DNA from: Nitrospirota bacterium
GTDB lineage: Bacteria; Nitrospirota; UBA9217
Assembly: GCA_963737155.1 (NCBI GenBank)
Contig: CAVTRN010000002.1
Span: forward strand, 756,960-788,959
Length of the DNA: 32,000 nt
Reading direction: 5' to 3'
The position numbers and the translations under genes are program-made. This document shows, piece after piece, positions 790 through 15,757 of this stretch; position 1 is the stretch's first letter; every line of letters begins with the position of its first letter. The notes under the pieces were generated by a model that worked only from the letters and a program-made list of their open reading frames with translations, had not been told where the DNA came from and did not search any database.

Positions 790-1422
790 TCATGTATCTA
801 TTTGAAATAAATTAACCAGCCCAATTTGAGGTAATCAATCGAAATAATGTTGGAAAGCACGGCGAAGTTAGGGAAGCCAGCAGAAGGACAGCGGTACTGA
901 AGCTATTTCCGTTAGCCGAGCAATCATTCAGGTGTCGACTCTGGAATACAGTAACAACGATGGTGGTCTGGACTTTATCTCATACATCAATTGCAACCAT
1001 CAAGTAACGCACTAGACTCAGAGGGACAGGCAATACTGTATTGAGAGGTTGTTGTAGCATTTTTGCAGTGCCGGATGGAATCTTGGATTCAACAATTGTA
1101 GGTATTAACGGATGCATACTCCCTGAAAGGGCTTCCTGGGTCCCTATGCGAATTCCCCTCGTACTGTGTCACTTATTTCGCAGCAGTTTCTTGATCCGTT
1201 TGGAAGACAGTAGATGTCATTATAGGGAGTTATGATGAAGACCGAAATGACGAGGAATGCAGTTTTAACGAGATGGGGATTTTAGCGATGCTCTTCTCGA
1301 TAACTTCTTAGTAGAGGATTACAATCTGTCTCAACTGAAATGTAAAAAAGAGGAATGAAGAGGAATAGGGGTATGACAGCCATGCTAGGTTGCCTGAACA
1401 TGGTCGTACGTGACTTTTCTTG

Positions 1423-1795
1423 TTAGAGCAATATTGCCAAGAATGACAAGCCCGTTCCTTGAAGGGCCATCTCAATAAAAGCCCCGGAGACAGCCTTGGT
1501 CACAACCTTGAAGGCTTTTGTCGTCGCCTGATGGACTACCTGGTCGTTGGTGACCGTTTTTGCGGGATGATAAAAGCCTGCTCTCTCAAGGGTGTTCAGG
1601 ATGTCCCTGGTAATGAATCTCTGCCGGATGATAGTGAATCAAAAGACTGCCTGTTGTAGTATTGAAATCGGTGGTTCCAATGCCATGCCCCATATTCACG
1701 AGAGCTTTCTGTACATCATAATGGACGGCGCTGTTCTTAAATAATGGATTTTTGAGACGCAACCTGCCAGGAACGTTATGAACATAACAGTTCAT
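1423..1795 (-). pseudogene. Single-domain HMA-like 'VPGRLR' protein with an apparent 1-nt frameshift (or a sequencing error)
   Basis: ORF 1586..1795 (MNCYVHNVPGRLRLKNP...TTGSLLIHYHPAEIHY) matches the repeat unit of the 4671..5516 protein. It stops where the unit should continue. The continuation (RDILNTLERAGFYHPAKTVTNDQVVHQATTKAFKVV...) is found in the adjacent frame and runs to a TAA at 1423-1425. It aligns with GQIISFLEKQGYFILSKAKT of the paralog. The total span is 373 nt, which is 3n+1. Confidence 0.5.
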
Positions 1796-2627
1796 GTGTC
1801 CGTACCTCCTTTTCTATGGTCTAAGTATAAAACTGATTTGTTACAGTCATATGAAGCAAATGTTACAGTTATGTTACATAATTCAGGTGTGATGAGATTA
1901 TTGAAAAAGACCATAAGTACCAGGTGAGAACAAAACTCAAAAACACCGGTAGCCATTAAGGAAAAGCAAGGACGGTATCAATCGCTGGACCATCCTTGGA
2001 AGAGACTCAGAAGAGCATCGGAACAACTTCCCGTTGCTTCCTAAAGGCGGACATTTTTGTTTTGCTAAGAGTAGGCAATTCTACGTTGCCTTGACAAGCT
2101 CTTGAACTCATCTTGTGTAGCTGCTATACTCACTTCGACGTTTACGAAGATACATACCGAGGAGAGGCTACGTAGACTGGAAACTACTGCTTGCTTATTA
2201 TTATTGAACTGTTGATCAGGAACTGCTCCTTTTTTAATTAATCCCTGGTGACAGAAAACCGCATATGATGCTATCAGTATCAAGTGCTTTCTCCAGATTC
2301 CCGATGGTGAGCGAATAACCTTGGCAGAGATCGGAAAGCACTTGGGGAAACAGGCATTGGCCGATGTGATTATGGGCCAGTTCCAAATCTGATGCTTTCA
2401 AGTCGAAATAAATCGTAACCATAATCAATTGTAACTATGGCTTTATTTTGCAAAAGATTGGAGGCTGTAATCAACTCTAAGAGAGAGTATTTTTTACGCA
2501 ACGTCAACATTTTGTCTCGCGGCATCTGTTTTTGCGACTGGTATGTAATTACCAATAAGCGAGACTCTAAGTATGATTCAACAGCCATGCTAATGGTCTA
2601 GTATTTTTAATTTGTATAGGAGTACTT

Positions 2628-3638
2628 ATGTCCCATGTGCTCATGCTTTTTATCGCTCTCGCTGTCATTCTTCTTGGTGCTACTGTATTTACAAACGGGC
2701 TGGAGTGGTTCGGAAAGAAGATGAACCTTTCCGATGGGGCTGTCGGAAGCATCTTCGCTGCTGTTGGCACCGCTTTGCCGGAAACCCTCATCCCCCTTAT
2801 CGCGATTCTTTTCGGTACCAAAGATGCTGGTCACAAAATCGGTGTTGGTGCCATAATTGGTGCCCCGTTTATGCTAGGGACACTGGCGTACTTCATCAGT
2901 GGCCTCGCTGTGATGGTTAACAGAAAAAAACGGGATGATTATCCCACTATGCGGGTTGATGCGATCGTTATGCGCCGGGATATCGAATATTTTCTCGTTC
3001 TCTACAGCGTTGCCATTGTCAGCACCTTCTTACTAAATCATCCTGTTTTCAAAGTTGCTATTGCCCTCATCTTGTTACTTTCATATGGAGCTTATGTTTT
3101 AAAAACCCTTACGGGCACGAGCGGAAATCATGTGGTCGAAGAAGCAGATCTGGATCCGTGTTATTTCGCCCCAAAGTCCCACGACCCCAATTTCCCCATA
3201 ATTGTAGTTCAGGTTATGAGTTCCTTACTCTTGATTGTCTGGGGAGCCTACATTTTCGTTGAGAAAGTTCAGATAATATCTGGGCAAATTGGGGTATCAC
3301 CGTTTATCCTTTCCATGGTTATTGCACCGATTGCGACAGAATTGCCGGAGAAGTTCAATAGTGTAATTTGGATTAATAAAGGAAAAGATACCCTCGCAAT
3401 CGGAAACATCACTGGCGCAATGGTATTTCAAGGTTCCGTAATTACCGCCATTGGAATCTTAATGACTGAATGGGACCTGACGCCTGCGGCGTTCATAACA
3501 GTCATTCTGACCTTTGCTTCGGTTGGTTTGGCTTATTGGCAAATACGCGCACAGAATAAGCTGACACCATATGCGCTTCTAGCTGGCGGTGCTTTTTATC
3601 TCATCTTTATTGTGCTGGTATTGATAGGAAGGATTTAA
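2628..3638 (+). CDS. CaCA-family cation/Ca2+ exchanger (YrbG-like Na+/Ca2+ antiporter type) membrane protein
   Basis: 336 aa and polytopic. It has two alpha-repeat-like motifs, AAVGTALPETLIP in the N-terminal half and IAPIATELPEKFNS in the C-terminal half. An AGGAG Shine-Dalgarno sits a few nt upstream of the ATG. Confidence 0.7.
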   Translation: MSHVLMLFIALAVILLGATVFTNGLEWFGKKMNLSDGAVGSIFAAVGTALPETLIPLIAILFGTKDAGHKIGVGAIIGAPFMLGTLAYFISGLAVMVNRKKRDDYPTMRVDAIVMRRDIEYFLVLYSVAIVSTFLLNHPVFKVAIALILLLSYGAYVLKTLTGTSGNHVVEEADLDPCYFAPKSHDPNFPIIVVQVMSSLLLIVWGAYIFVEKVQIISGQIGVSPFILSMVIAPIATELPEKFNSVIWINKGKDTLAIGNITGAMVFQGSVITAIGILMTEWDLTPAAFITVILTFASVGLAYWQIRAQNKLTPYALLAGGAFYLIFIVLVLIGRI

Positions 3639-4341
3639 AAAGAGTTTATTGCGTACCATTTGCAACTCAGTGGACCCTGCCTCGCGCAGTAGTTTACTTC
3701 TGCATTCCATCAATACAAGATTCCACAAAGCACGTGCCACGTACGAACTCAAATACAACGGTCCGGTTAAGAAAATATTATTCGGAATATTGTACGTGAT
3801 GAAGTGCTCGGAACTCTTACGTGCGGGGTTTCCTGGGATAATGATCGACTTTATTATGCAAGTTAACAATATGGCTTTTGAGCATATATCCATGAACGCT
3901 GCAGCCACATACGCTTTCCCTCACGCTGCACTCATTATCTGACGAATAAAAAGACAATTCGAACATGGATTATCCACGTTCTACTGGTCGCCATGCCGAA
4001 GAACGCGTTGTGTTTCTACTCGGCTAAGTTCAGTCCGATGATCAGATATCCCATAGAACCGCGAATATGGTTCTAAATTGACAAATATCCCGAAGCCTGA
4101 TATCTTTTAGAATATACAGACTAAACCTTCTGCTCAAACTTTAAGTTACCTATGAATATATTCTTGGCGGCAGGTTTCTGTTTTGCGTAGGCTGTAAATA
4201 AACATATTCCCTGTTGTACTTATCCTCCCATCTATTCATTTTTACATATATATATATCTGGAGTCTGCGGCGGTTTCTTCTTTTTGAAAGAAACGCTGAA
4301 TACACGGCACAATCGTCATACAGGTAATAGGGAAGCAGTGA

Positions 4342-4515
4342 ATTCTGATATTGTCTTACTCAACGATATACTCCACGATCACAGTGACCGTATTCTTTCG
4401 TGGTGGATCGCATAGGGCGTTGAAGCCTGATGGAATGCTATTCTTTTCGGATCAACACAGGCAAGAAAAAGATATAATAGCCAAAATAACCGGCGCAGGC
4501 CTGTTCAAGCTGTAA
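4342..4515 (+). pseudogene. Possible C-terminal remnant of a class I SAM-dependent methyltransferase (truncated and frameshifted)
   Basis: The frame ending at TAA 4513-4515 reads RALKPDGMLFFSDQHRQEKDIIAKITGAGLFKL. The adjacent frame just upstream reads SDIVLLNDILHDHSDRILSWWIA*. Together they resemble the D-x-V-x5-LHH...L-x4-R-x-LKPGG-x-L end of methyltransferases. There is no N-terminal SAM-binding part, no start codon and no SD. Confidence 0.3.
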
Positions 4516-4670
4516 ACAGGGGGGAAAGAATAGCTATAGCTTGTGAGAACAAGATAAATATTCAAAATGGTTTTTGCCTCCTCCTCTGGCTCTTTGCCAT
4601 CTGTACGATTATCTAGTTCATGCTACGATTCAGCGAGGTGTGCATTTTTGTACTTGGAGAGGAGAATTTC

Positions 4671-5426
4671 ATGGACTACTATTATAACCATGTGCCGGGC
4701 AGATTAAGAATTCAAACGCCATTCATCCACGGTAGCCCGCAAAATGCAGCCACTTTTGAAAAGAATATACTGGGCCTGGAAGGGATAACGTCGGTCGAAA
4801 CCAACCCTGTTACCGGCAGCGCATTAATTCTTTTCGATGAAAAGAAGATCGAATACGGGCAGATCATCAGCTTTCTCGAAAAACAGGGTTACTTTATTCT
4901 TTCTAAAGCAAAGACGTTTGATATGGACTACTATTATAACTATATGCCGGGCAGATTAAGAATTCAAACGCCATTCATCCACGGTAGCCCGCAAAATGCG
5001 ACGATTTTTGAAAAGTATATACAGGGCTTGGAAGGGATAACGTCGGTTGAAACCAACCCTGTTACCGGCAGCGCACTGATTCTATTCGATGAAAAGAAGA
5101 TCAAATACGAGCAGATCACAAGCTTTCTCGAAAAACAGGGTTACTTTATTCTCTCTAAAGCAAAGGCGTCTGATATGGACTACTATTATCACTATGTGCC
5201 GGGCAGATTAAGAATTCAAACGCCATTCATCCGCGGTAACCCGCAAAATGCGGCGATTTTTGAAAAGAATATACAGGGCTTGGAAGGGATAACGTCGGTT
5301 GAAACCAACCCTGTTACCGGCAGCGCATTAATTCTTTTCGATGAAAAGAGAATCAAATACGAGCAGATCACCAGCTTTCTCGAAAAACAGGGTTATTTTA
5401 TTCTGTCTAAGGCTAAGACGTCTGAT
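4671..5426 (+). repeat. Three in-frame tandem direct repeats of exactly 252 bp
   Basis: Units begin at 4671, 4923 and 5175, each with ATGGACTACTATTAT. My by-eye count is about 20 mismatches per 252 nt between units 1 and 2. Confidence 0.9.
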
Positions 5427-5516
5427 GAAGTTATCGAGCAGGCAGCGGAAAAGGTGCTTGATGTGGCAGAGAAGATAGTAGTCGACTCGGTTGATGGTGG
5501 GATTGAAGATGTTTGA
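4671..5516 (+). CDS. Triplicated HMA-like 'VPGRLR' domain protein (3 x 84 aa plus a 29-aa acidic tail)
   Basis: The ATG at 4671 is preceded by GGAGAGGAG at 6-nt spacing. The track ORF start at 4620 has no SD. There are three units of MDYYY(N/H)(H/Y)(V/M)PGRLRIQTPFI(H/R)G.PQNA..FEK.I.GLEGITSVETNPVTGSALILFDEK.I.Y.QI.SFLEKQGYFILSKAK. No unit has a CxxC motif. Confidence 0.8.
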   Translation: MDYYYNHVPGRLRIQTPFIHGSPQNAATFEKNILGLEGITSVETNPVTGSALILFDEKKIEYGQIISFLEKQGYFILSKAKTFDMDYYYNYMPGRLRIQTPFIHGSPQNATIFEKYIQGLEGITSVETNPVTGSALILFDEKKIKYEQITSFLEKQGYFILSKAKASDMDYYYHYVPGRLRIQTPFIRGNPQNAAIFEKNIQGLEGITSVETNPVTGSALILFDEKRIKYEQITSFLEKQGYFILSKAKTSDEVIEQAAEKVLDVAEKIVVDSVDGGIEDV

Positions 5517-5689
5517 TGTAGCTGTGCTTCCACGCAAATGACGCCAAATAATAGATTTATGGAGTGTAATTAGTCGCCCCTTCTACAATATCTACTATTA
5601 AGGTCCTCATAGTGTCCTGACGGCGTAGATAGTTAGAATTATTTTGTAATAAAAAAATTATATTTTATTCCTCTGAAAGGAGTTCGTGC

Positions 5690-6328
5690 ATGATGATTCG
5701 GACACTTAACATCGGTCTCCCGAAAAAGGAGTTGTTTCATGGGAAGGAGTTCATTACGGGCATGTGCAAAAAGCCCGTTACAATCCCTGTTATGCTGACG
5801 AAGCAGGGCCTTGAAGGAGACGGCGTCGGCGACCTGAAGCACCACGGTGGAAGCGACAAGGCCGTTTGTGTCTACGCCATCAATTACTACGAGTACTGGG
5901 AAAAGTTACTCGGAAGAAAAATGACCGATGCGGCATTTGGTGAGAATTTTTCCGTAACGGATATGAAAGAGGATGATGTCTGTATCGGCGATATTTACCG
6001 AGCGGGCATGGCGACTGTGCAGGTGAGTCAGCCCCGCCAGCCATGCTCGACGCTGGCGGCCCGATACGGCCGGGGGGATTTCGTGAAGCTTGTCGTCGAT
6101 TCCGGCCGAACGGGTTTCTACTTCAGGGTGCTTGAAGGCGGAAGGGTAAAGGCCGGTGACGGTCTCTTCCTCGTTGAAGAGGATCCACGCCGGGTATCGA
6201 TCACTTTTGCCAATCGCATCTATCATTACGATAGAAAAAACCGCGAAGGAATCGAGAAGGTTCTTGCGGTTCCCGCTCTTTCGGAATCATGGCAGAAATC
6301 GTTTCTAGAATTAAAAGACCGGGCATAG
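5690..6328 (+). CDS. MOSC domain-containing protein (YiiM-like)
   Basis: 212 aa. Motifs are GLEGDGVGDLKHHGGSDKAVCVY and VSQPRQPCSTLA with a conserved Cys, followed by GFYFRVLEGGRVKAGD. A GAAAGGAG SD lies upstream. Confidence 0.8.
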   Translation: MMIRTLNIGLPKKELFHGKEFITGMCKKPVTIPVMLTKQGLEGDGVGDLKHHGGSDKAVCVYAINYYEYWEKLLGRKMTDAAFGENFSVTDMKEDDVCIGDIYRAGMATVQVSQPRQPCSTLAARYGRGDFVKLVVDSGRTGFYFRVLEGGRVKAGDGLFLVEEDPRRVSITFANRIYHYDRKNREGIEKVLAVPALSESWQKSFLELKDRA

Positions 6329-6796: not shown

Positions 6797-9700
6797 TTGC
6801 TGAACATCCTGCCCAAGAGACAGAATGCTTCGCTACAGGAAACGCCGCAGCCGTACTGTGTGGGCGTGAACATCGGTGCGATCACGGTGAAGGCGGTGGC
6901 CTTGCGAGGGGGCGATGCCTTCTCCACGGTGGTGACCCATCAGGGCCGTCCTCTGGAGGTGCTCGGAGAAATACTCGCTGGGAAGGAGTTCAACGGTGCC
7001 GAATATTTCGGGGTATCTGGCCACAGGGGCCACATTTCCGATGTTGCCGCCATTCAACGGGCGTTGGACGAACTGGGGGGTGATTTTGACGCGGTCGCCT
7101 CGCTAGGCGGCGAGTCCTTCCTGGTCTATCTTCTGGTTGACGGAAGGATCTCGAATGTGCTTTCGCACAATAAATGCGCCGCCGGAAGCGGCGAATTTTT
7201 TGTGCAGCAGATCGGCCGGATGCAGCTCACGATTGAGGATGCTATCGAGCGCTCGTTTGTCGGGAAGGTCGTGCCACTGGCAAGCCGGTGCTCGGTCCAT
7301 TGTAAGTCGGACATCACTCACAAGCTTAACCGGAAGGAAGCGAGCCCCGAAGACATCTTGCATACGTTGCATGACAGTATGGCTGACAAGGTGGTCTCGC
7401 TGCTCGAAAAGGCTCAGCGCCAGATCGATCGGGTGCTCGTCATAGGAGGCGTATCCCGGAACGCTGCTCTCCTGTACGCCTTGCGAGAGAAGCTTCCCTC
7501 CACGGAATTCATCGTCCTTCCCGAGAGTCTTTGCTGGGAGGCCTGGGGGTGCGCTTTGCTCACCCGGGAGGAGCCTCGTTACAACTCTCCGAAGATCTCT
7601 CCTCAGCCGATGCCGGACAGTTATCCCCCGCTTCATCACCAGGCAGACCGGGTGCAGGTCATTGCGCCGCTGCAGCGGCAGCCGCATCCGGACCGCTTGC
7701 TGATCCTCGGTCTCGATGCGGGATCGACGACGACCAAGGCAGTCCTGCTCGATCCTGACACGAGGTGCGTGGTAGCATCGAACTACACCCGCACGCGAAG
7801 CGATCCCGTGGCCGCAACGCGCGAGTGCCTCAGGTCTGTCGCGCGTGAAGTCGGCAATCTCAGGGTCGGGCTGACCGGAACCACCGGCTCGGCTCGGGAA
7901 CTTGTCGGCGCCTACTTGGGCACGGCCCATGTTTACAACGAGATTTCGGCCCATGCGACAGGAGCGAGCCACTTCGACCCTGACGTGGACACCATCTTCG
8001 AGATCGGCGGCCAGGACTCCAAGTACATCCGTCTCCGGAACGGCGTACCCGTCGATTATGCGATGAACAATGCCTGCTCTGCCGGTACCGGTTCATTTCT
8101 GGAAGAGAGCGCTCAGGGAGACCTCGGCATAACGGTGTCGGATATCGCCGAAAGCGCGCTGGCCGCAGCGTCTCCGGTGCAGTTAAAGGCGACCTGCGCG
8201 GCATTCATCAATTCCGACATCCGTATCGCGTTCCAACAGGGCCAGTCGCGAGAAAACATTGTGGCTGGGCTGGTTTACGCGATCGCCGCAAACTATCTCA
8301 CCAAGGTCAAGGGGCCGCGTGCTTTGGGCAAAAAGGTGTTTCTGCAAGGCGGAGTTGCCCTGAACCGCGCCGTAGGCCATGCCTTTGCTCATAGCGTGGA
8401 CCGCACGGTCGTGATTCCCCCTAACCCGGAACTTATGGGAGCGCTGGGCGTCGCGCTCCTTGCCCTGGGACGCTGCAACGGTAAGCTTGATGCCGCGACG
8501 GATCTGCTTTCCCTGTCTGCCCCAGAGATGGCTTCCCCGGGGCACTTCATTTGCAAGGCATGCCGGATGCACTGCAGCATCGACCGTTTTGAGGTAGCTG
8601 GCCGGCGTTTTCCCTTTGGCGGGCGCTGCAGCCTTTATGAAAATGTATGGAAAAGAAACGCCCGCGTTGTTGCCGCGCCGGACCTAGTCGGACAACGGGC
8701 TGAGTTGATCTTTGGAAAAAACGACACCAGCGGAGAAAGACAGGCGCTGGAGCGCGGCCGACCTCGCATTGGAATTCCGAGAGCGCTCTTAACGCACTCA
8801 CTCTATCCTCTTTTCTCAACTTTTTTCTCGAGTCTGGGACTGGAGGTGGTCTTGTCCGGTCTGGACCTCCATGGCGAGCTGAAGTCCTATTCAGGCTTTT
8901 GCTATCCCGCGCAGACAGCGCATGGCGCGGTCCTGGATCTTGCCAGGCAGAGTGTGGATCTGGTCTTCCTCCCTCATGTAAAACGTATGCCCCTGCCCGG
9001 CCTGTGCGATGATTCCTATCTCTGCCCGATCACCCAGGCCAGCCCCTTTTTCCTTGCCGCGGCATTTTCGGATGTCCGCTTCCTTTCTCCGGTCCTGGAT
9101 TTCACTTGTGGCTACGAATGCGGTCCGGAAATGGAAGAGATGATTGCTCGGGAGTTGGGAATCGGTCGCGAACAGATACGGCAAGCCTGGAAAGCGGCAA
9201 GGAGCGCCCAGATACGGACTGACTGCGCGATGCAAGAGCTCGGACAGCAGTTTCTTGAGCGTGCGCTGGCGGAAGGAAAGCCAGCGATCGTGCTTGCGGG
9301 CCGAAGCTACAACGCTTACGCGCCTGAGGCTTCCCAATCAGTCGGCAAAAAGCTCTCCAGCATGGGTATGGTGGCCATCCCCGCTGATTGCCTGGCACAG
9401 ACCGAAGAGGGGCCCTTTGCCTGGCACTTCTCCAACCAGGTATTGAACGCCATGGCTCTGGCTAAGAAGCATCCCAATCTGTTTCTGGTCTGCATCAGTA
9501 ATTTCAGCTGCACCGTGGACGCCTTTACGCATGCCAAAGTCGCGTCCGAGATGGGTTCCAAACCCTACCTGATTCTTGAGATCGACGCGCACACAGCCGA
9601 CGCCGGCGTCCAGACCCGCCTTGAGGCTTTCCTCGACATTGTTCATAACTATCAGGGTATGCCGGCCATCCAGAGTCGACAGTTCTCATTGTGCCGGGTC

Positions 9701-11017
9701 GGCGCCGGTAATACGGTCATCCGTTCTTCGGGGGAGACTGTATCGATGTTCGATTCACGGGTAAAGTTTTATTTTCCCAATTTCTCGGAATTCCATACAC
9801 AGGCAATGGCAATGGCGTTCCGTTGGCTGGGCCTGCAAGCCGGAGAACTCACTCCGCTCGACCGGTACCAGCTCGAACTGGGGCTCCAACACACGTCAGG
9901 ACGCGAGTGCCTTCCACTGCCGCTCTGCGTCGGACAACTGCTCAAGATCAACGAGCAGCGCAAGCCCGGCGAACTCGCAGGATTTTACATGCTGAAAGGT
10001 GGAGCGCCCTGCGTATTGGACGCCTATCTGGATTACCTCAGACGTTTCATCTCGGATCAGCAATTGCCCGACATTTTTCTGTTCGTCCCGACCGAAGATT
10101 ACGGACAAGGTTCAATCGACAGAATGGCGCTCGCAAAATACTCAGCGCTCACGCTCCTTCTGGCGGACCTCCTTGTGGAGATCGAGCATGTTCTGCTGGT
10201 TGTCGGCGATCGAGGGAGCGTGGACCGACTCAGGCAGGAGTGGCAGCGATTTGTTGCCGTAGCAGACTCGGAGGGCCGTTTTCAGGACGAGTTGGCCTCA
10301 TTTATCGAGCGGATCGCAGCCCTTCCACGCACGCGGGACCCAATGGCCTGTCCGCGGGTCGTTGTCATTGGTGACTTCTTTACCCGCTTTAGCCCCTTCT
10401 TCATGGACGGCGTCCGAGACCTGTATTCCGGGCAAGGCATCATCCTGAAGCCTGTTGATATGACCGACTTGCTGCTGTATCACACCTATTACCCGGTGGC
10501 CGAAACGGCCCGCGAATGGGGTATGAAACCGGGCGGGCTGGCTTTGGCCAAAGCCTGCTCCAGGATTTTTCAAAGGGATGGAAAGCGGTATCTGCAGCAC
10601 TGGCTTGCCTATATGGCGGAGAGGCATGTCGAGGAAAACTACCGGAGGCTGTTTGCGAAGACCGGCCTTCTCGTGGCTGGTTCCAATGATGCGGCTTCCT
10701 TGTTCGAGAAGGCTTCTGATTATGTGTCACCGGGAATCTACGGTGAGATTATATCGACCATTGGCCGGGGCTTGGAGGCCGAGGCTGAAGGCTACGATGG
10801 CATCATCTGCATCGGGCCGTTCAACTGCCTCCCATTCCGCATTTCCGAAGCGATCCTAAAACCGTTCAGCATCCGGCAGGGGATGCCTGTCCTGACCTAT
10901 GAGAGCGACGGCTACACGGTTTCGCCGTCGGTCCTTCGTCAGGTGGACGTACACATCCAGCAGGTTCTTGAACGCTCGGCCCGGATTCCGCGTTATCAAA
11001 ATATTCGAACCCACTGA
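6797..11017 (+). CDS. Fusion protein of two HgdC/BcrAD_BadFG-type activase ATPase domains and a DUF2229-like (BCR/HAD dehydratase-related) C-terminal region
   Basis: 1406 aa with a TTG start and GAGGGA upstream; the start is uncertain. ATPase 1 carries GVNIGAITVKAV and NKCAAGSGEFF. ATPase 2 carries LGLDAGSTTTKAVLLD and NNACSAGTGSFLE. A Cys-rich FICKACRMHCSIDRFEVAGRRFPFGGRCSLYE follows, then a long DUF2229-like region. Confidence 0.8.
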   Translation: MLNILPKRQNASLQETPQPYCVGVNIGAITVKAVALRGGDAFSTVVTHQGRPLEVLGEILAGKEFNGAEYFGVSGHRGHISDVAAIQRALDELGGDFDAVASLGGESFLVYLLVDGRISNVLSHNKCAAGSGEFFVQQIGRMQLTIEDAIERSFVGKVVPLASRCSVHCKSDITHKLNRKEASPEDILHTLHDSMADKVVSLLEKAQRQIDRVLVIGGVSRNAALLYALREKLPSTEFIVLPESLCWEAWGCALLTREEPRYNSPKISPQPMPDSYPPLHHQADRVQVIAPLQRQPHPDRLLILGLDAGSTTTKAVLLDPDTRCVVASNYTRTRSDPVAATRECLRSVAREVGNLRVGLTGTTGSARELVGAYLGTAHVYNEISAHATGASHFDPDVDTIFEIGGQDSKYIRLRNGVPVDYAMNNACSAGTGSFLEESAQGDLGITVSDIAESALAAASPVQLKATCAAFINSDIRIAFQQGQSRENIVAGLVYAIAANYLTKVKGPRALGKKVFLQGGVALNRAVGHAFAHSVDRTVVIPPNPELMGALGVALLALGRCNGKLDAATDLLSLSAPEMASPGHFICKACRMHCSIDRFEVAGRRFPFGGRCSLYENVWKRNARVVAAPDLVGQRAELIFGKNDTSGERQALERGRPRIGIPRALLTHSLYPLFSTFFSSLGLEVVLSGLDLHGELKSYSGFCYPAQTAHGAVLDLARQSVDLVFLPHVKRMPLPGLCDDSYLCPITQASPFFLAAAFSDVRFLSPVLDFTCGYECGPEMEEMIARELGIGREQIRQAWKAARSAQIRTDCAMQELGQQFLERALAEGKPAIVLAGRSYNAYAPEASQSVGKKLSSMGMVAIPADCLAQTEEGPFAWHFSNQVLNAMALAKKHPNLFLVCISNFSCTVDAFTHAKVASEMGSKPYLILEIDAHTADAGVQTRLEAFLDIVHNYQGMPAIQSRQFSLCRVGAGNTVIRSSGETVSMFDSRVKFYFPNFSEFHTQAMAMAFRWLGLQAGELTPLDRYQLELGLQHTSGRECLPLPLCVGQLLKINEQRKPGELAGFYMLKGGAPCVLDAYLDYLRRFISDQQLPDIFLFVPTEDYGQGSIDRMALAKYSALTLLLADLLVEIEHVLLVVGDRGSVDRLRQEWQRFVAVADSEGRFQDELASFIERIAALPRTRDPMACPRVVVIGDFFTRFSPFFMDGVRDLYSGQGIILKPVDMTDLLLYHTYYPVAETAREWGMKPGGLALAKACSRIFQRDGKRYLQHWLAYMAERHVEENYRRLFAKTGLLVAGSNDAASLFEKASDYVSPGIYGEIISTIGRGLEAEAEGYDGIICIGPFNCLPFRISEAILKPFSIRQGMPVLTYESDGYTVSPSVLRQVDVHIQQVLERSARIPRYQNIRTH

Positions 11018-11137: not shown

Positions 11138-11920
11138 TCATTCCTGGAGTGTGAAGGCGGACAGAATTTCCACCAGCGAGTCCACGGCCTTTCCCAGGTT
11201 TTTCGAAGCCCTTGCGGCGTTTCTCCCGAGTTTTATGCTTACCGGGATAAGCGTCGGCTTTGAGAGAAGGAGGCCGAAAGCCTGTGAAAAACGGTAATGG
11301 CCCGTCTTGTCCGTTACGGCGATAAGTTCCGGAGGAATATCTTCATCCAGCCGATCGGTGATCGAGCGTAACGCGAGAAAGGGCACGCGATTCTGATGCG
11401 AGAGCTTTGCGAAATAAAATGTTTCCATGTCGCATACGGGGAAGGGGAGGTCGCCGGGGATCATCTTTTTGATTTTTGATTTTGTCATCATTTCCGAGAG
11501 GGTAACAATGCCTCCCTCCCTTGCGGCGATCCTTTCATTGAGCTTGTCCCCAATTTGTCTGCCGAGGGCGGAATCGGGGACGACGTCTTCCGGGAGATGT
11601 TCTCGCTCCCGCGTTCTGTCTCCCCTGATGAGGAAGGAGCGGGAAGACCACACAATATCCCCGATACCGGCGTTTTCGTACAGGGCGCCGCCGAAACCGG
11701 CGGATAAAACAATGTCGGGGCGGCGCTCCTGGAGCACGTGCCGGAATGCGGTTTCCGCGTTCGCAGCGCCTATGCCGGTTTGTACTGCGATGACGTCACA
11801 CGGGGGATGCAGCTCCCTCTCCAAGGGGAAAGGACGGTTCACCGGATTTTGTGCTGATGGACGGTTTTTACGTATGTGCTTTAATTCCTGCGGAAAGGCC
11901 GCAAAAAGTGCCATGATCAT
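11138..11920 (-). CDS. hpnG: Hopanoid-associated nucleoside phosphorylase/nucleosidase (HpnG-type, PNP_UDP_1 family)
   Basis: 260 aa with motifs QTGIGAANAETA, SAGFGGAL and CDMETFYFAKL. It lies within the hpn gene neighbourhood. Confidence 0.7.
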   Translation of the reverse strand: MIMALFAAFPQELKHIRKNRPSAQNPVNRPFPLERELHPPCDVIAVQTGIGAANAETAFRHVLQERRPDIVLSAGFGGALYENAGIGDIVWSSRSFLIRGDRTREREHLPEDVVPDSALGRQIGDKLNERIAAREGGIVTLSEMMTKSKIKKMIPGDLPFPVCDMETFYFAKLSHQNRVPFLALRSITDRLDEDIPPELIAVTDKTGHYRFSQAFGLLLSKPTLIPVSIKLGRNAARASKNLGKAVDSLVEILSAFTLQE

Positions 11921-11968
11921 TTTGAGAAGGTGTTCTGCCTTTCTTTGAGGATCGACAGCGTGGCCTGA

Positions 11969-12538
11969 TTATATCCCTTCCTGCTCGGGAAAGTATTTCT
12001 TCCTCAACTTGTTTTGATGGCCCTGTTCGACGAATGTGTCGGAGGTCCCGTCTCGCTTGCGGTGTACGGCTTCTATTTCGCGATCAAGGAAAAGTTCAAG
12101 TAGGGCGCTGCCGAAGCCCTGGGCAAGAACATTCTCTTTAACGGGACGAGCTTCATGCCGCTGACGCGACGAACGGATCAGCCTCGCGTCCGGCGGTTTA
12201 ACGAACCGTGCATTGACGGCCGCTGCGTCGATGCCTTTCGCTTCTGGCAACGTCGCTGCCGACAGGACCGGGAGCACGGTATGGCCCAGCGCCATCAACG
12301 CAACGTCGCCGCAACTTCTCGGGAGCTCGGCCTCTCCGATGTGAAGGGACCGGGCGAACTCCCGTTCTCCGAGGGGCGTCCGGGCAGCCTTATCACTTTT
12401 TCTCTCGGATACCGGATGTCGGCAGATCCGCTGTGTTTCAGCGCCAAGCCGAGCATGGCAGACCAATTCAATGTTGTCCTTCGAGGCCTTGACCACGAGG
12501 TTCGGAATATGTCTGAGATAGGAAGGGTCCTGTATACG
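11969..12538 (-). pseudogene. dxs: Eroded C-terminal remnant (about 190 codons) of 1-deoxy-D-xylulose-5-phosphate synthase
   Basis: The minus-strand frame reads QDPSYLRHIPNLVV...SKDNIEL...GDVALMALGHTV...GIDAAAVNARFVKPPDARLI...VKENVLAQGFGSALLE...SDTFVEQGHQNKLRKKY. It is collinear with the last third of DXS (FDLSYLRCIPxMV, DVAIxxxG, VxxRFVKPLD, TVEEN, GGxGSxV, PDxFxxxG). Conserved positions are replaced, and the N-terminal roughly 430 codons are absent. Confidence 0.65.
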
Positions 12539-12763
12539 TGAAGCCGATTTCGCGTGGAGAGGGTTTTTTCTCCTCTTTTTGTAGTATAGTCTTTGTCGTA
12601 TAGTCCTAGTATAGCAGGGAAAATGGCGACGGCAAGTTATTTTAGGAGCGGGGACTTGAGCGAGGACTTGATTTCTGATATCATAGACCTCACGTGAGCG
12701 CGAAAGGCTGAACGGTTAAGTACACTCCCAATTGACGTCCCGCGGCGCGGGACGAGAAGCGAC

Positions 12764-13915
12764 ATGATCATCTCGATACCGGCAATTCTTATTCTACTTA
12801 TCCTTTGTGCGGGAGCCTATCATCTTTTCTCTCTCTATTGCGTATGGGAATTTTTCCGGGAGGAAATAAGCGAGCCGGCGCTTCGGCCTCACATCCCCGT
12901 ATCAATCATCAAACCGCTCAAGGGAATCGAACCCGGATTCGGGGAAAACCTCAGGACTTTTTGCGAGCAGGACTATCCCGAATTTGAGGTCCTGCTGGGA
13001 TTTTCCGATCCGGCCGACGACGCCATCCCGCGGGTCAATGGGACGGTTGATACCCTAATGGATTGCAATGTCCGTACGGTCATCGGCGCGGGTCGCCCGG
13101 CTGTGAACCGGAAGGTGTCGAATCTTGGAGGGCTGGCGGAATCAGCCCGGCACCCCATCCTCGCTATCAGCGACAGCGACATGAGAGTGGACCGAGCCTA
13201 CCTCGGGCGAAGCATGGAGGAATACTTCAGCGCCCGAAACGTCGGCCTGGTCACGTCTCTGTACAAGATCTCAAACCCCGAATCGATCGGCGCCGCGCTG
13301 GAGTCCCTAACGATCGCGCTCGATTTTATTCCGTCCGTTCTTGTCGCCCGTCGACTGGAGGGCATTACGTTCGGATTAGGGGCATCTTTGGTGCTCTCGA
13401 AGAAGGCGTTGGAGGAGATCGGCGGCTTTGCCGCGATCGGCGACTACCTTGCAGACGATTACCAGCTCGGCAACCGGCTTTGGAAGCGGGGGTATTTGAT
13501 CGTCCTTTCCCGGTATGTCATCGAGAACGTTGTGGGTCCCATGAGCATTGCTGATTACTACAGGCATCAGCTCCGGTGGGCGCGGACCTACCGGTCATCA
13601 AGGCCCAAGGGTTTTGCCGGTTATGGCATTACGCACATGGTTCCCTTTTGCCTGCTTCTCCTCATTGCGGCAGGTCCGAACGCCCTCTCGCTGTCTGTAC
13701 TTGGATCTGCCGTCATGGTGCGGTACGGCCTTGCATATGTCCTGTACAGAAAGGTAATTCACTCACGGCAGTGGCTGAAATGGATTGTGCTCGTGCCTGT
13801 AAAAGACGTCCTAGGCTTCGGTATCTGGGCCTGGAGTTTCACGAGCCGGAAAGTCCGCTGGCGGGGCAACGAGTATCGTATCTTGAAAGACGGAAAGCTC
13901 CGGCAGACGGAGTAG
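12764..13915 (+). CDS. hpnI: Hopanoid-associated glycosyltransferase HpnI (ceramide-glucosyltransferase-like, GT family 21 type)
   Basis: 383 aa with an N-terminal TM. Motifs are PVSIIKPLKG, EFEVLLGFSD, SDSDMRV (DxD) and QLRWARTYR (QxxRW-like). It sits in the hpn context. Confidence 0.8.
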   Translation: MIISIPAILILLILCAGAYHLFSLYCVWEFFREEISEPALRPHIPVSIIKPLKGIEPGFGENLRTFCEQDYPEFEVLLGFSDPADDAIPRVNGTVDTLMDCNVRTVIGAGRPAVNRKVSNLGGLAESARHPILAISDSDMRVDRAYLGRSMEEYFSARNVGLVTSLYKISNPESIGAALESLTIALDFIPSVLVARRLEGITFGLGASLVLSKKALEEIGGFAAIGDYLADDYQLGNRLWKRGYLIVLSRYVIENVVGPMSIADYYRHQLRWARTYRSSRPKGFAGYGITHMVPFCLLLLIAAGPNALSLSVLGSAVMVRYGLAYVLYRKVIHSRQWLKWIVLVPVKDVLGFGIWAWSFTSRKVRWRGNEYRILKDGKLRQTE

Positions 13916-13979
13916 CCGCAGGTTAGGCTTTAAAGTGGGGCTGCCGCTAAAACCACACCTCCATTCCAGCACATAAACT

Positions 13980-15212: not shown

Positions 15213-15537
15213 AAACCACTATTTTCTCGCGGAGCAAGGGACACAGATCTTTCTAATACGGCAGTTGATGCGATGGTTTCTTATTAAATCAATAAGATGC
15301 TTTATATTCTTTTAAATCTGTTAGGTGAGGAATTAATTGCAATTGCCGTAGTTTTTATAAATTTGATATATTATTATTAACTAAAGAATTAAGTATCATA
15401 ATTGTCCACAACTGCTAAGAGTTCTGGCCAAAGTAACAATACTTTAGTTATATTGATATTTGAGATGAACTGCGCTATCGTTTCTTTAAATATCGACGGG
15501 TGAATGGTTTAAGTGAGCGGAAAATCAAGAAAGTTGA

Positions 15538-15566
15538 TTGACAATTTCTTTCTTTTTTACTAGAAT
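15538..15566 (+). promoter_or_regulatory. Near-consensus sigma70-type promoter (TTGACA-N17-TAGAAT)
   Basis: TTGACA is at 15538-15543 and TAGAAT at 15561-15566, with an exact 17-nt T-rich spacer. It is embedded in an AT-rich intergenic region upstream of hpnJ. Confidence 0.55.
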
Positions 15567-15704
15567 GCCACTCGAAAAGGGCATCGTTCGCATCTTACGA
15601 AGAAACAGGAAGCATAGAGGGGAACGGACATCTTAACACCCCGTGATCTATCCAAGCGATGGAGCATAGAGGTGGAGGAGCGTTCGGATGACATTGATTA
15701 CTGT

Positions 15705-15757
15705 GAGGAGGATCTGAAGGGTGATTTTCTGCTTCAGTCGCTTCTCCTCATTTTTTT
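15705..15757 (+). terminator. Intrinsic-terminator-like hairpin inside the hpnJ leader
   Basis: A two-tier stem pairs GAGGAG (15705-10) with CTCCTC (15744-49) and CTGAAG (15714-19) with CTTCAG (15732-37). An A-TTTTTTT run (15751-57) follows immediately. It lies 76 nt upstream of the hpnJ GTG. Confidence 0.55.

What the first reader, a model, noticed from the sequence alone, without database searches (positions are those of the whole stretch)
4671..5426. Three near-identical 252-bp in-frame tandem repeats create a triplicated-domain protein with mosaic differences
Units start at 4671, 4923 and 5175 and are each exactly 84 codons. My by-eye count is about 20 differences in 252 nt between units 1 and 2.

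The differences are mosaic. Unit 3 shares GCATTAATTCTTTTC with unit 1, where unit 2 has GCACTGATTCTATTC. Unit 3 also shares CAGGGCTTGG, GTTGAA and AAATACGAGCAG with unit 2, where unit 1 has CTGGGCCTGG, GTCGAA and GAATACGGGCAG. That pattern suggests gene conversion or unequal crossing-over between units.

Repeats of this length and identity inside a gene are recombinogenic. Copy number may therefore vary between cells or strains, and short-read assembly may have mis-estimated it. Many of the differences are non-synonymous (NAATFEKNIL / NATIFEKYIQ / NAAIFEKNIQ). They cluster in the predicted first helix region, which would be the ligand or partner surface in an HMA fold.
Basis: seen in the sequence. 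Interest (0 to 1): 0.65.

Follow-up and report, generated by a model that had tools for sequence, protein, structure and literature searches.

The report
Triplicated cysteine-free CoBaHMA (HMA-like) domain protein
A gene in a probable soil Nitrospirota genome encodes three back-to-back copies of a cysteine-free, HMA-like "CoBaHMA" domain, made by an old in-frame triplication that is real and conserved by selection, but it is a fairly ordinary case of domain amplification in a family whose function is unknown.

Summary
Window 4671-5426 holds exactly three in-frame 252-bp units (92-93% identical, no indels) inside one 281-aa ORF (4671-5516).

Each unit is a CoBaHMA domain (Pfam HMA_2, PF19991). 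This is an HMA-like ferredoxin fold with an extra N-terminal strand and the PGRxR basic motif, but with no cysteine, so it is not a CopZ-type metal binder.

Relatives occur only in Nitrospirota MAGs and soil or peat metagenomes. About 35-40 loci have one unit and about 11 have two, with a different 270-bp period. None has three. The three window units form a 100%-bootstrap clade nested among single-unit genes, so the triplication is lineage-specific and independent of the two-unit duplication.

The "mosaic" is mostly what any three sequences give. Differences are largely unit-private and not spatially clustered (P=0.17). No identity tract is longer than chance allows. All three pairs have dS≈0.19 and dN/dS 0.2-0.3. 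The array is therefore old, stable and under purifying selection, not a hypervariable or mis-assembled repeat.

The function is inferred only: a soluble, multivalent adaptor acting on anionic membrane or transporter partners. Interest is modest.

The parts
4614..4670 (+). Conserved about 57-nt leader with a Shine-Dalgarno sequence (GGAGAGGAG) and an imperfect inverted repeat (CATGCTACG-ATTCAG-CGAGGTGTG).
   Evidence: A covariance model built from 14 relatives finds this leader only directly upstream of this gene family, in 28 loci and at window 4614-4673 (58.8 bits). The hairpin has no covariation support: 68-70% of cells are paired against 66-67% in shuffles.
4671..5516 (+). CDS of 281 aa: three CoBaHMA (HMA_2) domains plus one acidic C-terminal tail. 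It has no Cys, no signal peptide and no TM segment, and its pI is 5.3.
   Evidence: ORF list. Pfam HMA_2 E=4.1e-44, 3 stretches. AlphaFold2 mean pLDDT 77.3 with three beta0-beta1-alpha1-beta2-beta3-alpha2-beta4 modules. Composition.
4671..4922 (+). Repeat unit 1 (84 codons). It has about 7 private derived substitutions and N6/H7 instead of the family's H6.
4923..5174 (+). Repeat unit 2 (84 codons). It has about 7 private derived substitutions. It shares a few derived sites with unit 1 (65, 222, 237) and with unit 3 (83, 197, possibly 126).
5175..5426 (+). Repeat unit 3 (84 codons). It is the most ancestral-like unit: about 4 private changes, it keeps the canonical beta0 His (H6) and a basic residue at position 20, and it is closest to single-unit orthologues (84.5-86.9% nt).
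5427..5516 (+). Single-copy tail EVIEQAAEKVLDVAEKIVVDSVDGGIEDV plus the stop codon. It is an acidic predicted helix, conserved in 1-, 2- and 3-unit relatives, and it matches the HMA_2 profile beyond the fold core.
   Evidence: profile positions 12-112 matched by unit 3 plus tail; helix 255-269, low pLDDT

Best explanation
Shown: the repeat is the coding sequence of a soluble 281-aa protein made of three directly abutting CoBaHMA domains and one shared acidic C-terminal helix. CoBaHMA corresponds to Pfam HMA_2. It is an HMA-like ferredoxin fold with an extra N-terminal strand and the conserved PGR-x-R basic motif, and it has no metal-binding cysteines.

Inferred from sequence comparison: the array arose in this Nitrospirota lineage from a single-domain ancestor by in-frame tandem amplification of codons 1-84. 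The likely route was a duplication followed quickly by an unequal crossover. This event was independent of the codon 1-90 duplication that produced the two-domain relatives. Since then the three units have diverged equally (dS about 0.19) under purifying selection. The array is therefore an old, fixed, functional architecture, not a currently unstable or mis-assembled repeat.

Inferred function, not shown: like other stand-alone CoBaHMA proteins it acts at the cytoplasmic face of the membrane, through its basic beta-sheet face, on an anionic partner. That partner could be anionic lipid head groups and/or cytoplasmic parts of ion transporters such as the neighbouring CaCA antiporter. Triplication would raise valency or avidity or allow bridging of several partners. 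It does not carry copper or other soft metals.
For: Anatomy:
- TRF and alignment.
- HMA_2 scores 150.6 bits for the protein and 48.7 bits per unit, against a cutoff of 30.
- The AF2 model has domain cores at pLDDT 87-95 and strand beta0 at residues 3-8 of each unit.
- Foldseek top hits are tandem HMA arrays (CzcP 4u9r, CopA 2rml/1p6t, ATP7B). Single HMA domains match at target-normalised TM 0.69-0.80 and rmsd 1.5-2.3 Å.
- The protein has 0 Cys.
- HMA_2 is equated with CoBaHMA in bioRxiv 10.1101/2024.07.07.602159.

Origin:
- Relatives have 1 unit (about 35-40 loci) or 2 units with a 270-bp period, whose 18-bp linker is homologous to the first 6 tail codons. None has 3 units.
- The window units form a 100% bootstrap clade nested among single-unit genes.
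- Window 4347-4922 is collinear with L032, where an intact methyltransferase precedes a single-unit gene.

Stability and selection:
- dS is 0.192-0.195 for all three pairs and omega is 0.21-0.30.
- The N:S test gives P=9e-4.
- No long identity tracts and no spatial clustering of differences.

Function, indirect:
- R11 and R13 are invariant in all units and family-wide.
- An inorganic-ion transporter lies next to the gene in about 6 of about 20 independent contexts: CaCA, CLC, SulP twice, a P-type ATPase, and CDF plus NhaP.
- The related 123-aa CoBaHMA type sits with CoBaHMA-fused P2-type cation ATPases in 4 of 7 loci, and with phospholipid genes (PS-decarboxylase-like, LGT-like or acyltransferases) in 4 of 7.
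- The literature hypothesis is a regulatory role with anionic lipids (citing Gaschignard 2024).
Against: - No experiment or conserved operon ties this subfamily to any partner. Neighbours differ in almost every locus. The transporter enrichment is only suggestive (binomial P between 0.004 and 0.07, depending on the assumed background).
- The family's basic signature is only partly kept. Position 15 is Q rather than K/R, and the canonical beta0 His is present only in unit 3.
- The gene lies in a low-GC stretch with two frameshifted neighbours, so relaxed selection is possible. Omega between units is somewhat higher than between orthologues (0.12-0.25).
- The inter-domain arrangement and the tail in the model are low-confidence (pTM 0.59, tail pLDDT below 50).
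- Copy number could not be checked against reads.
Confidence: 0.65

Rival explanations
1. One reading: the array is an actively recombining, copy-number-variable (contingency-like) repeat. Gene conversion or unequal crossing-over is ongoing and the non-synonymous differences tune a ligand surface.
For: - Identical runs of 49-59 bp remain between units. From general knowledge this exceeds the roughly 25-30 bp needed for RecA-dependent exchange.
- Two-unit relatives show concerted evolution. L002 units A and B are 92.5% identical, while orthologous A units of L002 and L001 are 80.6% identical.
- A few conflicting shared-derived sites are ordered 12|23,23,23|12,12 along the unit. This fits a hybrid middle unit.
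- Unit number differs among lineages.
Against: - dS is equal at about 0.19 for all pairs, with 4-7 private substitutions per unit.
- No identity tract is longer than chance (P=0.12-0.22).
- Runs test P=0.17. For the six informative sites, the chance of seeing this few runs or fewer is 0.3 by hand enumeration, 6 of the 20 possible orderings of the sites.
- The two clean 2+3 sites give I28 and T66, states that recur independently in relatives.
- Omega is 0.2-0.3, and differences fall at generally variable positions.
- No three-unit or linker-less variant appears in any database searched.
Confidence: 0.1
2. It is a copper or heavy-metal chaperone of the CopZ/HMA type, as some sources annotate its relatives. 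The three domains would be three metal sites.
For: - JGI names several relatives 'copper chaperone CopZ'.
- There is weak HMA (PF00403) and CopZ model similarity.
- The nearest solved structures are CopA, CopZ and ATP7B domains.
Against: - The whole protein has no cysteine, so there is no CxxC motif.
- CopZ NCBIfam models score 55-71 bits for the whole three-domain protein, against cutoffs of 91-95.
- PF00403 scores 24.6 bits per unit against a cutoff of 24.8.
- PDB sequence matches start after the metal loop, at query residues 26-30.
- The literature describes CoBaHMA as lacking the metal-binding residues.
Confidence: 0.04
3. The three units are an assembly artefact: an expanded or collapsed repeat, or strain haplotypes concatenated in tandem.
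For: The source is probably a metagenome-assembled genome. Two neighbouring genes carry frameshifts that could be sequencing errors. No reads are available.
Against: - Each unit has its own private substitutions and the frame is intact over 846 bp.
- The D84|M1 junctions share no overlap with the flanks (TTTC|ATG upstream, GAT|GAA downstream), so an assembler had nothing to mis-join there.
- The contig is 3.08 Mb long.
- Substitutions show purifying selection, not error-like noise.
Confidence: 0.03
4. It is a decaying or neutral gene in a degenerate low-GC islet. The extra domains would be selectively irrelevant passengers of a duplication.
For: - GC is about 0.41-0.44 across 1001-6000, against about 0.51-0.60 over the next 8 kb.
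- The methyltransferase upstream and the second CoBaHMA gene are frameshifted.
- Omega between units (0.21-0.30) is higher than between orthologues (0.12-0.25).
- The family moves between contexts. One relative copy (L010) is truncated and flanked by Mutator-family IS.
Against: - The ORF is intact after about 0.19 synonymous substitutions per site.
- All three units are individually constrained (N:S test P=9e-4).
- The core strands and the PGRLRIQ motif are invariant.
- The Shine-Dalgarno sequence and leader are conserved.
- The gene has this low GC in all hosts, since it is 80-87% identical at the nucleotide level to relatives.
Confidence: 0.1
5. The domains bind nucleic acid. A ferredoxin-like fold with a basic and aromatic beta-sheet face, arranged in tandem like RRM proteins, might autoregulate through the conserved 5' leader.
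For: - A weak Pfam hit to RRM_PARP14_3 (34.7 bits for the whole protein, 12.6 bits per unit).
- Foldseek hits to multi-RRM proteins at low probability.
- A conserved leader with an inverted repeat travels with the gene.
- The basic patch is expected to bind anions.
Against: - The RRM similarity is at the level of a shared fold only (per-unit E=0.15).
- The leader hairpin has no covariation support, and RNAalifold predicts no structure.
- Family contexts point to membranes and transporters, not to RNA metabolism.
Confidence: 0.05

Closest known systems
CoBaHMA domain family (Pfam HMA_2, PF19991). Sources: Benzerara et al. 2022, PMC8890360; Gaschignard et al. 2024, Proteins 92:776, which is not held in the library and is cited through.
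   Same: - Strong HMA_2 profile match for each unit.
- HMA-like fold with an extra N-terminal strand beta0.
- PGR-x-R basic motif in beta1.
- No CxxC motif.
- Occurs as a small stand-alone protein.
- Genomic links to transporters.
   Different: - Three domains in one chain with no linkers. Among the 150 best of 1116 representatives none has more than 2 matched stretches.
- The third basic position is Q.
- The beta0 His is canonical only in unit 3.
- The C-terminal hydrophobic segment typical of the 123-aa members is replaced by a purely acidic helix.
Two-domain relatives in Nitrospirota (P0002-P0008; loci L001-L005, L019-L024)
   Same: - Same subfamily (71-75% aa identity).
- Same tail and same conserved leader.
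- Tandem whole-domain duplication starting at codon 1.
   Different: - Period is 270 bp (codons 1-90), leaving a 6-aa linker derived from the tail. The window period is 252 bp with no linker.
- They form a separate clade in the unit tree.
- The window's tail and upstream synteny match single-domain genes instead.
Tandem canonical HMA metal-binding domains of P1B-ATPases (B. subtilis CopA 2rml/1p6t, ATP7B, CzcP 4u9r)
   Same: - Best structural matches.
- Several ferredoxin-like domains in series.
   Different: - Those domains carry CxxC and bind Cu(I) or Zn, and they are fused to a pump.
- This protein has no Cys, is free-standing, and has the beta0 strand.
Calcyanin (CcyA) CoBaHMA-type N-domain and the Microcystis ccyA neighbourhood
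   Same: - CoBaHMA domains occur near a Ca2+ transporter gene. The literature discusses a cax Ca2+/H+ transporter acting with ccyA.
- The window has two CoBaHMA genes flanking a CaCA antiporter.
   Different: - The window has no (GlyZip)3 calcyanin gene.
- The CaCA adjacency is not conserved in relatives.
- The second CoBaHMA gene is frameshifted.

Membership tests
CoBaHMA / Pfam HMA_2 (PF19991) | Sequence match to the HMA_2 profile above the gathering score | tested here: met
   The whole protein scores 150.6 bits (cutoff 30) with 3 stretches. Unit 1 alone scores 48.7 bits.
CoBaHMA / Pfam HMA_2 (PF19991) | Ferredoxin-like HMA core (beta-alpha-beta-beta-alpha-beta) | tested here: met
   AF2 secondary structure for each unit, with cores at pLDDT 87-95. 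Foldseek matches single HMA domains at target-normalised TM 0.69-0.80 and rmsd 1.5-2.3 Å.
CoBaHMA / Pfam HMA_2 (PF19991) | Additional N-terminal strand beta0 before beta1 | tested here: met
   The model has strands 3-8 and 11-15 in unit 1, 88-92 and 95-99 in unit 2, and 172-176 and 179-183 in unit 3. This rests on a prediction only.
CoBaHMA / Pfam HMA_2 (PF19991) | Conserved basic residues in beta1/beta2 and a conserved His in beta0 | tested here: inconclusive
   R11 and R13 are invariant in all three units. Position 15 is Q where most of the family has K/R. Position 20 is H/H/R where most of the family has K. The canonical His (position 6) is present only in unit 3; units 1 and 2 have N6.
CoBaHMA / Pfam HMA_2 (PF19991) | Binding of an anionic partner (lipids are proposed) | not testable with these tools
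   This is a hypothesis in the literature only.
Canonical HMA / CopZ metallochaperone | CxxC (GMxCxxC) metal-binding motif in the beta1-alpha1 loop | tested here: not met
   The 281 aa contain zero cysteines. The loop reads TPFIHGSPQNA.
Canonical HMA / CopZ metallochaperone | Score above the curated cutoff of the CopZ, MerP or HMA models | tested here: not met
   CopZ_Bs 71.1 bits vs 91. CopZ_Eh 54.8 vs 95. MerP 16.9 vs 92.55. PF00403 per unit 24.6 vs 24.8.
Hypervariable (contingency-type) intragenic tandem repeat | Near-identical units kept homogeneous by frequent exchange | tested here: not met
   7-8% nt divergence, dS 0.19 for all pairs, and private substitutions in each unit. No excess identity tracts.
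Hypervariable (contingency-type) intragenic tandem repeat | Copy number differs between cells or strains of one species | not testable with these tools
   No reads are available, and no contig from the same species turned up in any collection. The best relatives are at most 87% nt identical.

The most novel reading that the evidence does not exclude
Soluble CoBaHMA proteins of this Nitrospirota clade may be valency-tunable membrane or transporter adaptors. Whole-domain amplification happened at least twice independently, both times starting exactly at codon 1: one unit to two with a 270-bp period, and one unit to three with a 252-bp period. In this genome the three-domain form sits with a second CoBaHMA gene and a CaCA Ca2+/cation antiporter. 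This could be a remnant or variant of a cation-handling module, possibly for intracellular Ca-carbonate, analogous to the CoBaHMA-rich ccyA neighbourhoods of cyanobacteria. iACC has been reported in some Nitrospirota.
Probability: 0.08. Interest if true: 0.6.

Novelty: new member of a known kind. Interest (0 to 1): 0.3.

Why it matters
CoBaHMA (HMA_2) is a large family with no experimentally known function: 1116 representative clusters match at E≤1e-3. It is routinely mislabelled 'copper chaperone CopZ'.

This locus gives a clean natural series of 1-, 2- and 3-domain versions of one orthologous soluble protein, produced by two independent amplifications and all kept under purifying selection. 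Once a binding partner is suspected, that series is a ready-made test of whether valency matters.

It is also a worked example that a three-way 'mosaic' of differences between repeat units is not by itself evidence of gene conversion. Beyond that, the finding is an ordinary domain amplification.

Tried and rejected
- **Source contig:** an exact look-up of the window protein's contig found nothing on record.
- **CoBaHMA paper:** Gaschignard et al. 2024 (10.1002/prot.26668) is not held. Its content is used only as cited by other papers and from memory.
- **Synteny:** none of 14 window proteins other than the CoBaHMA genes recurs near relatives. All-vs-all clustering of neighbours found no conserved partner, apart from a small divergent ORF in the two-unit clade with no Pfam match.
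- **RNA elements:** Rfam found no family in the window at gathering thresholds, and there are no tRNAs.
- **5'-leader hairpin:** it looked like covariation by eye. It failed the tests on a MAFFT alignment and on a CM alignment, and RNAalifold predicted nothing. It is rejected as a demonstrated RNA structure.
- **Promoter and terminator scans:** counts were no higher than in shuffled sequence.
- **Defence systems:** PADLOC gave only sub-threshold noise.
- **Microhomology:** none was found at the duplication junctions.
- **Calcyanin:** a glycine-zipper scan of the window found none.
- **123-aa-type system:** the Zn-ribbon partner and the CoBaHMA-fused P-type ATPase of that system are absent from the window.
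- **Spurious Pfam hits:** matches of the triple protein to EBNA-3, Methyltransf_31, ToxN and others are repeat-inflated noise below their cutoffs.
Full report
**1. Observation**

Tandem Repeats Finder reports one strong array in the window: 4671..5426, period 252, 3.0 copies, 92% matches, no indels, score 1309. The units start at 4671, 4923 and 5175. They are 84 codons each and lie in one ORF.

Pairwise differences are 20, 20 and 17 nt (92.1, 92.1 and 93.3% identity) and 11, 11 and 8 aa.

The likely start is the ATG at 4671. It is preceded by GGAGAGGAG, the same Shine-Dalgarno sequence and start are conserved in relatives, and several relatives are called from that Met. The product is 281 aa: three 84-aa units plus a 29-aa tail. 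The ORF list shows an upstream in-frame ATG at 4620 (298 aa), which I consider less likely.

**2. What the unit is**

- **Profile matches.** Each unit matches Pfam HMA_2 (PF19991). The whole protein scores E=4.1e-44, 150.6 bits, with three stretches. One unit alone scores 48.7 bits against a cutoff of 30.
- **Canonical HMA and CopZ.** These models match weakly and below their cutoffs. PF00403 scores 24.6 against 24.8 per unit. CopZ models score 55-71 bits for the whole three-domain protein, against cutoffs of 91-95.
- **Cysteines.** The protein has none at all, so it has no CxxC metal site.
- **Identity of the domain.** A bioRxiv paper states that the HMA_2 profile corresponds to the CoBaHMA domain, which has strand beta0 and a charged patch on one face of the sheet. 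Benzerara et al. 2022 define CoBaHMA by basic residues in beta1/beta2 and a His in beta0, without the metal-binding residues.
- **Structure model.** AlphaFold2 used an 8-sequence alignment and gave mean pLDDT 77.3 and pTM 0.59. It predicts three modules with order beta0-beta1-alpha1-beta2-beta3-alpha2-beta4, with cores at pLDDT 87-95. The tail is a low-confidence helix.
- **Structure search.** The best Foldseek matches in the PDB are tandem HMA arrays: CzcP N-terminus 4u9r, CopA 2rml/1p6t, and ATP7B. Single HMA domains superpose at target-normalised TM 0.69-0.80 and rmsd 1.5-2.3 Å.
- **Solved structures.** No structure of a CoBaHMA domain itself was found. PDB sequence matches begin after the metal loop.

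**3. Signature residues**

A family alignment shows these invariant or near-invariant positions: Y4, H6, P9, G10, R11, R13, K/R15, K20, G38, N45, T48-G49-S50, G73, F75 and T82.

All three window units keep P9, G10, R11 and R13. Position 15 is Q, which is typical of this Nitrospirota clade. Position 20 is H, H and R in units 1, 2 and 3. The canonical H6 is present only in unit 3; units 1 and 2 have N6.

Membership in HMA_2/CoBaHMA is therefore met by profile and fold. The "conserved basic/His signature" is only partly met.

**4. Relatives and unit number**

- **Large protein collection.** The search returned the window protein itself (one cluster, on a 3.08-Mb contig) and seven close relatives of 203-231 aa at 71-74% identity. 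All seven have two units.
- **Genome scan.** A scan of one genome per species found 14 loci, all in Nitrospirota MAGs; one is named Dissulfurispiraceae.
- **Metagenome scan.** This found 37 more loci.
- **Unit counts.** About 35-40 loci have one unit. About 11 have two: L001-L005, L019-L022, and L023/L024, which are cut by the contig end. None has three, and none has a linker-less junction.
- **Wider family.** An exhaustive HMMER search with unit 3 plus the tail found 1116 representative clusters at E≤1e-3. Most are single-domain proteins of about 123 aa. Among the best 150, only four have two matched stretches and none has three.

**5. Origin**

In the two-unit relatives the period is 270 bp. 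The 18-bp linker (for example GAAGTTAAAGCGCGTTCA) is homologous to the first six codons of the tail (GAAGTTATAGAGAAGGCA). That duplication therefore covered codons 1-90. In the window the period is 252 bp, covering codons 1-84, and there is no linker.

Other evidence points the same way:
- The window's tail (EVIEQAAEKVLDVAEK...) matches the single-unit genes, not the two-unit ones (EVIEKAAEKVLEVAEK...).
- A neighbour-joining tree of 34 distinct units puts the three window units in one clade (bootstrap 100) nested among single-unit genes. The two-unit genes form a separate group. Within the window clade the (u1,u2) grouping has only 59% support.
- Window 4347-4922 is collinear (74% nt) with locus L032. 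There an intact 207-aa SAM methyltransferase directly precedes a single-unit gene. The window retains only a frameshifted C-terminal remnant of that methyltransferase, at 4284-4515.

The triplication is therefore lineage-specific. It came from a one-domain ancestor and is independent of the other duplication. Both amplifications begin exactly at codon 1. I take this as selection for intact domains, since beta0 starts at residue 3. This point is an inference.

**6. Is the "mosaic" evidence of conversion?**

With three sequences, any variable site leaves two units agreeing. The 28 variable sites split as follows: 11 where unit 1 is the odd one, 8 where unit 2 is, 8 where unit 3 is, and one site with three states.

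- Their order along the unit gives 16 runs against 18.8±2.3 expected (P=0.17).
- The longest identical runs (55, 49 and 59 bp) are not longer than chance for 17-20 differences in 252 sites (P=0.12-0.22).
- Polarising with four outgroups makes most differences unit-private derived changes: 7, 7 and 4 for units 1, 2 and 3; polarising with twelve does not alter that picture.
- Shared-derived sites are few. For 1+2 they are 65, 222 and 237, with site 16 ambiguous. For 2+3 they are 83, 197 and possibly 126. None supports 1+3.
- Their order along the unit (12 | 23, 23, 23 | 12, 12) fits a hybrid middle unit made by one unequal crossover near positions 198-221, plus one homoplasy. With six sites this is not significant. 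The chance of seeing this few runs or fewer is 0.3; I enumerated this by hand, and 6 of the 20 possible orderings of the sites qualify.
- Under uniform rates, two chance coincidences for 2+3 would be unlikely (P about 7e-4). However, the derived states I28 and T66 recur independently in relatives, so parallel change is plausible.

My conclusion is that the phylogeny is near star-like. The likely history is a duplication followed quickly by a second step, then long independent divergence. Ongoing conversion is not supported in this genome.

It does occur in the family. In L002 the two units are 92.5% identical, while orthologous units of L002 and L001 are 80.6-84.5% identical.

**7. Selection and age**

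Nei-Gojobori estimates between units are dS=0.195, 0.192 and 0.195, and dN=0.057, 0.057 and 0.041, giving omega 0.29, 0.30 and 0.21. Units compared with single-unit orthologues give dS 0.43-0.88 and omega 0.12-0.21. Orthologues compared with one another give omega 0.12-0.25.

On the star tree there are about 15 non-synonymous and 14 synonymous changes, where 79% non-synonymous would be expected under neutrality (P=9e-4).

The 15 variable amino-acid positions lie as follows:
- beta0: positions 6-8
- beta1-alpha1 loop: positions 20 and 22
- alpha1: positions 27, 28, 32 and 34
- beta3-alpha2 loop and start of alpha2: positions 59, 61, 63 and 66
- last residues of the unit: positions 82 and 83

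There are none in beta1, beta2 or beta3. Twelve of the 15 positions also vary among 12 single-unit orthologues (Fisher P=0.053).

The differences therefore sit where the family is free to vary. All three domains are constrained, with mild relaxation. The time since the last homogenisation is roughly 35-45% of the synonymous distance to the nearest sampled species.

**8. Assembly artefact?**

I could not examine reads. The evidence against an artefact is:
- Each unit has private substitutions and the frame is intact.
- The junctions (…GAT|ATGGAC…) share no overlap with the flanks (…TTTC|ATG…, …GAT|GAAGTT…), so there was nothing to mis-join.
- The substitution pattern shows selection.
- The contig is 3.08 Mb long.

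**9. Context and function**

*Local setting.* The gene lies in a low-GC stretch: 0.41-0.44 over 1001-6000, against about 0.51-0.60 over the next 8 kb. That stretch also holds:
- a second CoBaHMA gene of the 123-aa type, split by a 1-nt frameshift (1423-1795, minus strand);
- a CaCA-family antiporter (2628-3638; Na_Ca_ex; closest to calcium/sodium antiporter models but below their cutoffs);
- the methyltransferase remnant;
- a MOSC/YiiM gene (5690-6328).

A hopanoid cluster follows. It contains HpnG-like, HpnI, HpnJ, YdjC/HpnK-like, squalene-hopene cyclase, an epimerase, and an HpnH-like radical SAM enzyme.

*Neighbours in relatives.* No neighbour is conserved across relatives. One relative copy (L010) is truncated and flanked by Mutator-family IS. 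Even so, an inorganic-ion transporter is the adjacent or next-but-one gene in about 6 of about 20 independent contexts:
- CaCA in the window
- CLC in L001
- SulP with a K+ channel in the L002 group
- SulP in L029
- a P2-type ATPase 126 bp upstream on the same strand in L028
- CDF and NhaP on either side, on the same strand, in L013

MFS transporters are adjacent in L012 and L034. This gives binomial P=0.004 if 8% is the chance expectation and P=0.07 if it is 15%. The enrichment is suggestive only.

*The 123-aa CoBaHMA type.* I examined its context in seven loci.
- Four loci hold a roughly 1010-1035-aa P2-type cation ATPase with an N-terminal HMA_2 domain, plus further HMA_2 proteins (L056, L059, L060, L061).
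- Four loci have a 92-98-aa Zn-ribbon gene overlapping its start.
- Four loci (L057, L058, L059, L062) have phospholipid genes: PS-decarboxylase-like, LGT-like or acyltransferases. Three (L057, L058, L062) also hold glycosyltransferase or MGDG-synthase genes.

This agrees with the literature view that CoBaHMA may be regulatory and may interact with anionic lipids.

*Working hypothesis.* On this basis I propose a soluble, multivalent CoBaHMA adaptor that works at the membrane or on ion transporters. This functional part is inference. I put it at about 0.3 on its own. The anatomy, the origin and the stability of the array are well supported.

**10. Comparison and novelty**

- **Family.** The protein belongs to the known HMA_2/CoBaHMA family.
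- **Precedents.** Tandem HMA-type domains are well known; ATP7B, for example, has six (general knowledge). Two-domain CoBaHMA proteins also exist.
- **What is new.** This is the first three-domain, linker-less version in the collections searched. There is also evidence that whole-domain amplification happened independently twice in one clade.
- **Rating.** I rate it a new member of a known kind, with modest interest (0.3).

**11. Not demonstrated**

- The conserved roughly 60-nt leader (window 4614-4673) travels with the gene in 28 loci. It contains an imperfect inverted repeat, but there is no covariation.
- A link to Ca handling or biomineralisation rests only on the CaCA adjacency in this one genome. 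The window has no calcyanin gene.

Noticed in passing
window 1423-1795 (- strand): There is a second CoBaHMA (HMA_2) gene of the widespread 123-aa type, with a hydrophobic C-terminus ...GTGLSFLAILL. A single-base frameshift near 1614-1625 splits it into two frames. The span is 373 nt, which is 124 codons plus 1 nt. It is either a pseudogene or a sequencing error. It is transcribed divergently from the CaCA antiporter at 2628-3638.
   Followed up: partly
window 4284-4515 (+), compared with L032:2143-2766: This is a frameshifted C-terminal remnant of a SAM-dependent methyltransferase, directly upstream of the triplicated gene. Window 4347-4922 is collinear (74% nt) with L032. In L032 the methyltransferase is intact (207 aa) and the CoBaHMA gene has a single unit.
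   Followed up: yes
window about 1001-6300: This is a low-GC segment (0.41-0.44, against about 0.51-0.60 over the next 8 kb). It holds both CoBaHMA genes, the CaCA antiporter, two frameshifted genes and long stretches with no convincing ORF (about 3650-4280). It may be an acquired or decaying islet. No tRNA, integrase or IS was seen in the window.
   Followed up: partly
window 4614-4673 (+) and 28 related loci: A roughly 60-nt 5' leader is conserved and travels with this gene family into unrelated genomic contexts. It contains an imperfect inverted repeat around a conserved GATTCAG, about 25-50 nt upstream of the start. Pairing is in register (68-70% against 26-49% when slid), but there is no covariation beyond shuffles, so it could equally be a protein operator.
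   Followed up: yes
L056, L059, L060, L061 (contexts of 123-aa CoBaHMA proteins P0187, P0274, P0189, P0025): A gene set recurs in Nitrospirota and in MAGs labelled Deltaproteobacteria or Pseudomonadota. It comprises several small HMA_2 proteins and a roughly 1010-1035-aa P2-type cation ATPase with an N-terminal HMA_2 domain. Also present in some loci are a 92-98-aa Zn-ribbon gene overlapping the start of the 123-aa gene, SAM synthetase, a DUF5132 protein (L061), and PS-decarboxylase-like and LGT-like genes. It looks like an uncharacterised membrane, cation or lipid system. DUF5132 and CoBaHMA genes also neighbour ccyA in Microcystis.
   Followed up: partly
L010:6002-9863 and L006:11157-12425 (same MAG, CAWJQQ010000001.1): A truncated paralogue of the gene is flanked on both sides by copies of a 422-aa Mutator-family transposase gene (clustered by BLASTP; sequence identity not measured). 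A third copy lies 3 kb from the intact gene in L006. IS elements may explain why the gene has no conserved synteny.
   Followed up: partly
relatives P0002, P0003, P0006, P0007 and many 123-aa family members: Source annotations call these proteins 'copper chaperone CopZ', 'cation transporter' or 'cation transport ATPase'. The members of the window's subfamily that I read lack a CxxC motif, so 'copper chaperone' is most likely an over-annotation from weak HMA similarity. I did not check this across the 123-aa family.
   Followed up: partly
window 11138-23204: This is a hopanoid side-chain biosynthesis cluster. HpnJ scores above its cutoff (695.6 bits) and HpnI scores above its cutoff (316.3 bits). 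It also holds an HpnG-like phosphorylase, a YdjC/HpnK-like gene, squalene-hopene cyclase (18653-20680), an NAD epimerase and a radical SAM enzyme with DUF3463 (HpnH-like). An Omp85-family gene (13980-15212) is embedded in it, and a short ORF with only a transketolase C-terminal domain lies at 11969-12496 (- strand).
   Followed up: partly
window 6797-11017 (+): This is a very long ORF (1406 aa) that fuses two BcrAD/BadFG-type ATPase domains with DUF2229. It resembles CoA-enzyme activases and begins with TTG.
   Followed up: no
window 31407-31748 (+) and 31736 onwards: The other tandem repeat in the window (GGCGGCGGT, 31674-31731) encodes the Gly/Arg-rich tail of a small RRM-type RNA-binding protein, going by its sequence motifs (MGKKLYVGNL...KGFGFVEM). 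No profile search was run on it. Downstream an ORF runs off the window end; by eye it resembles ribosomal protein S21.
   Followed up: no
L001:9207-9566 (-), L002:6891-7193 (-), L005:7223-7525 (-): A small ORF (100-119 aa, no Pfam match) is transcribed divergently just upstream of the two-unit genes. It is the only neighbour conserved between the L001 and L002 lineages. L001 also has a weak glycine-zipper protein 1.5 kb upstream (7252-8445).
   Followed up: no
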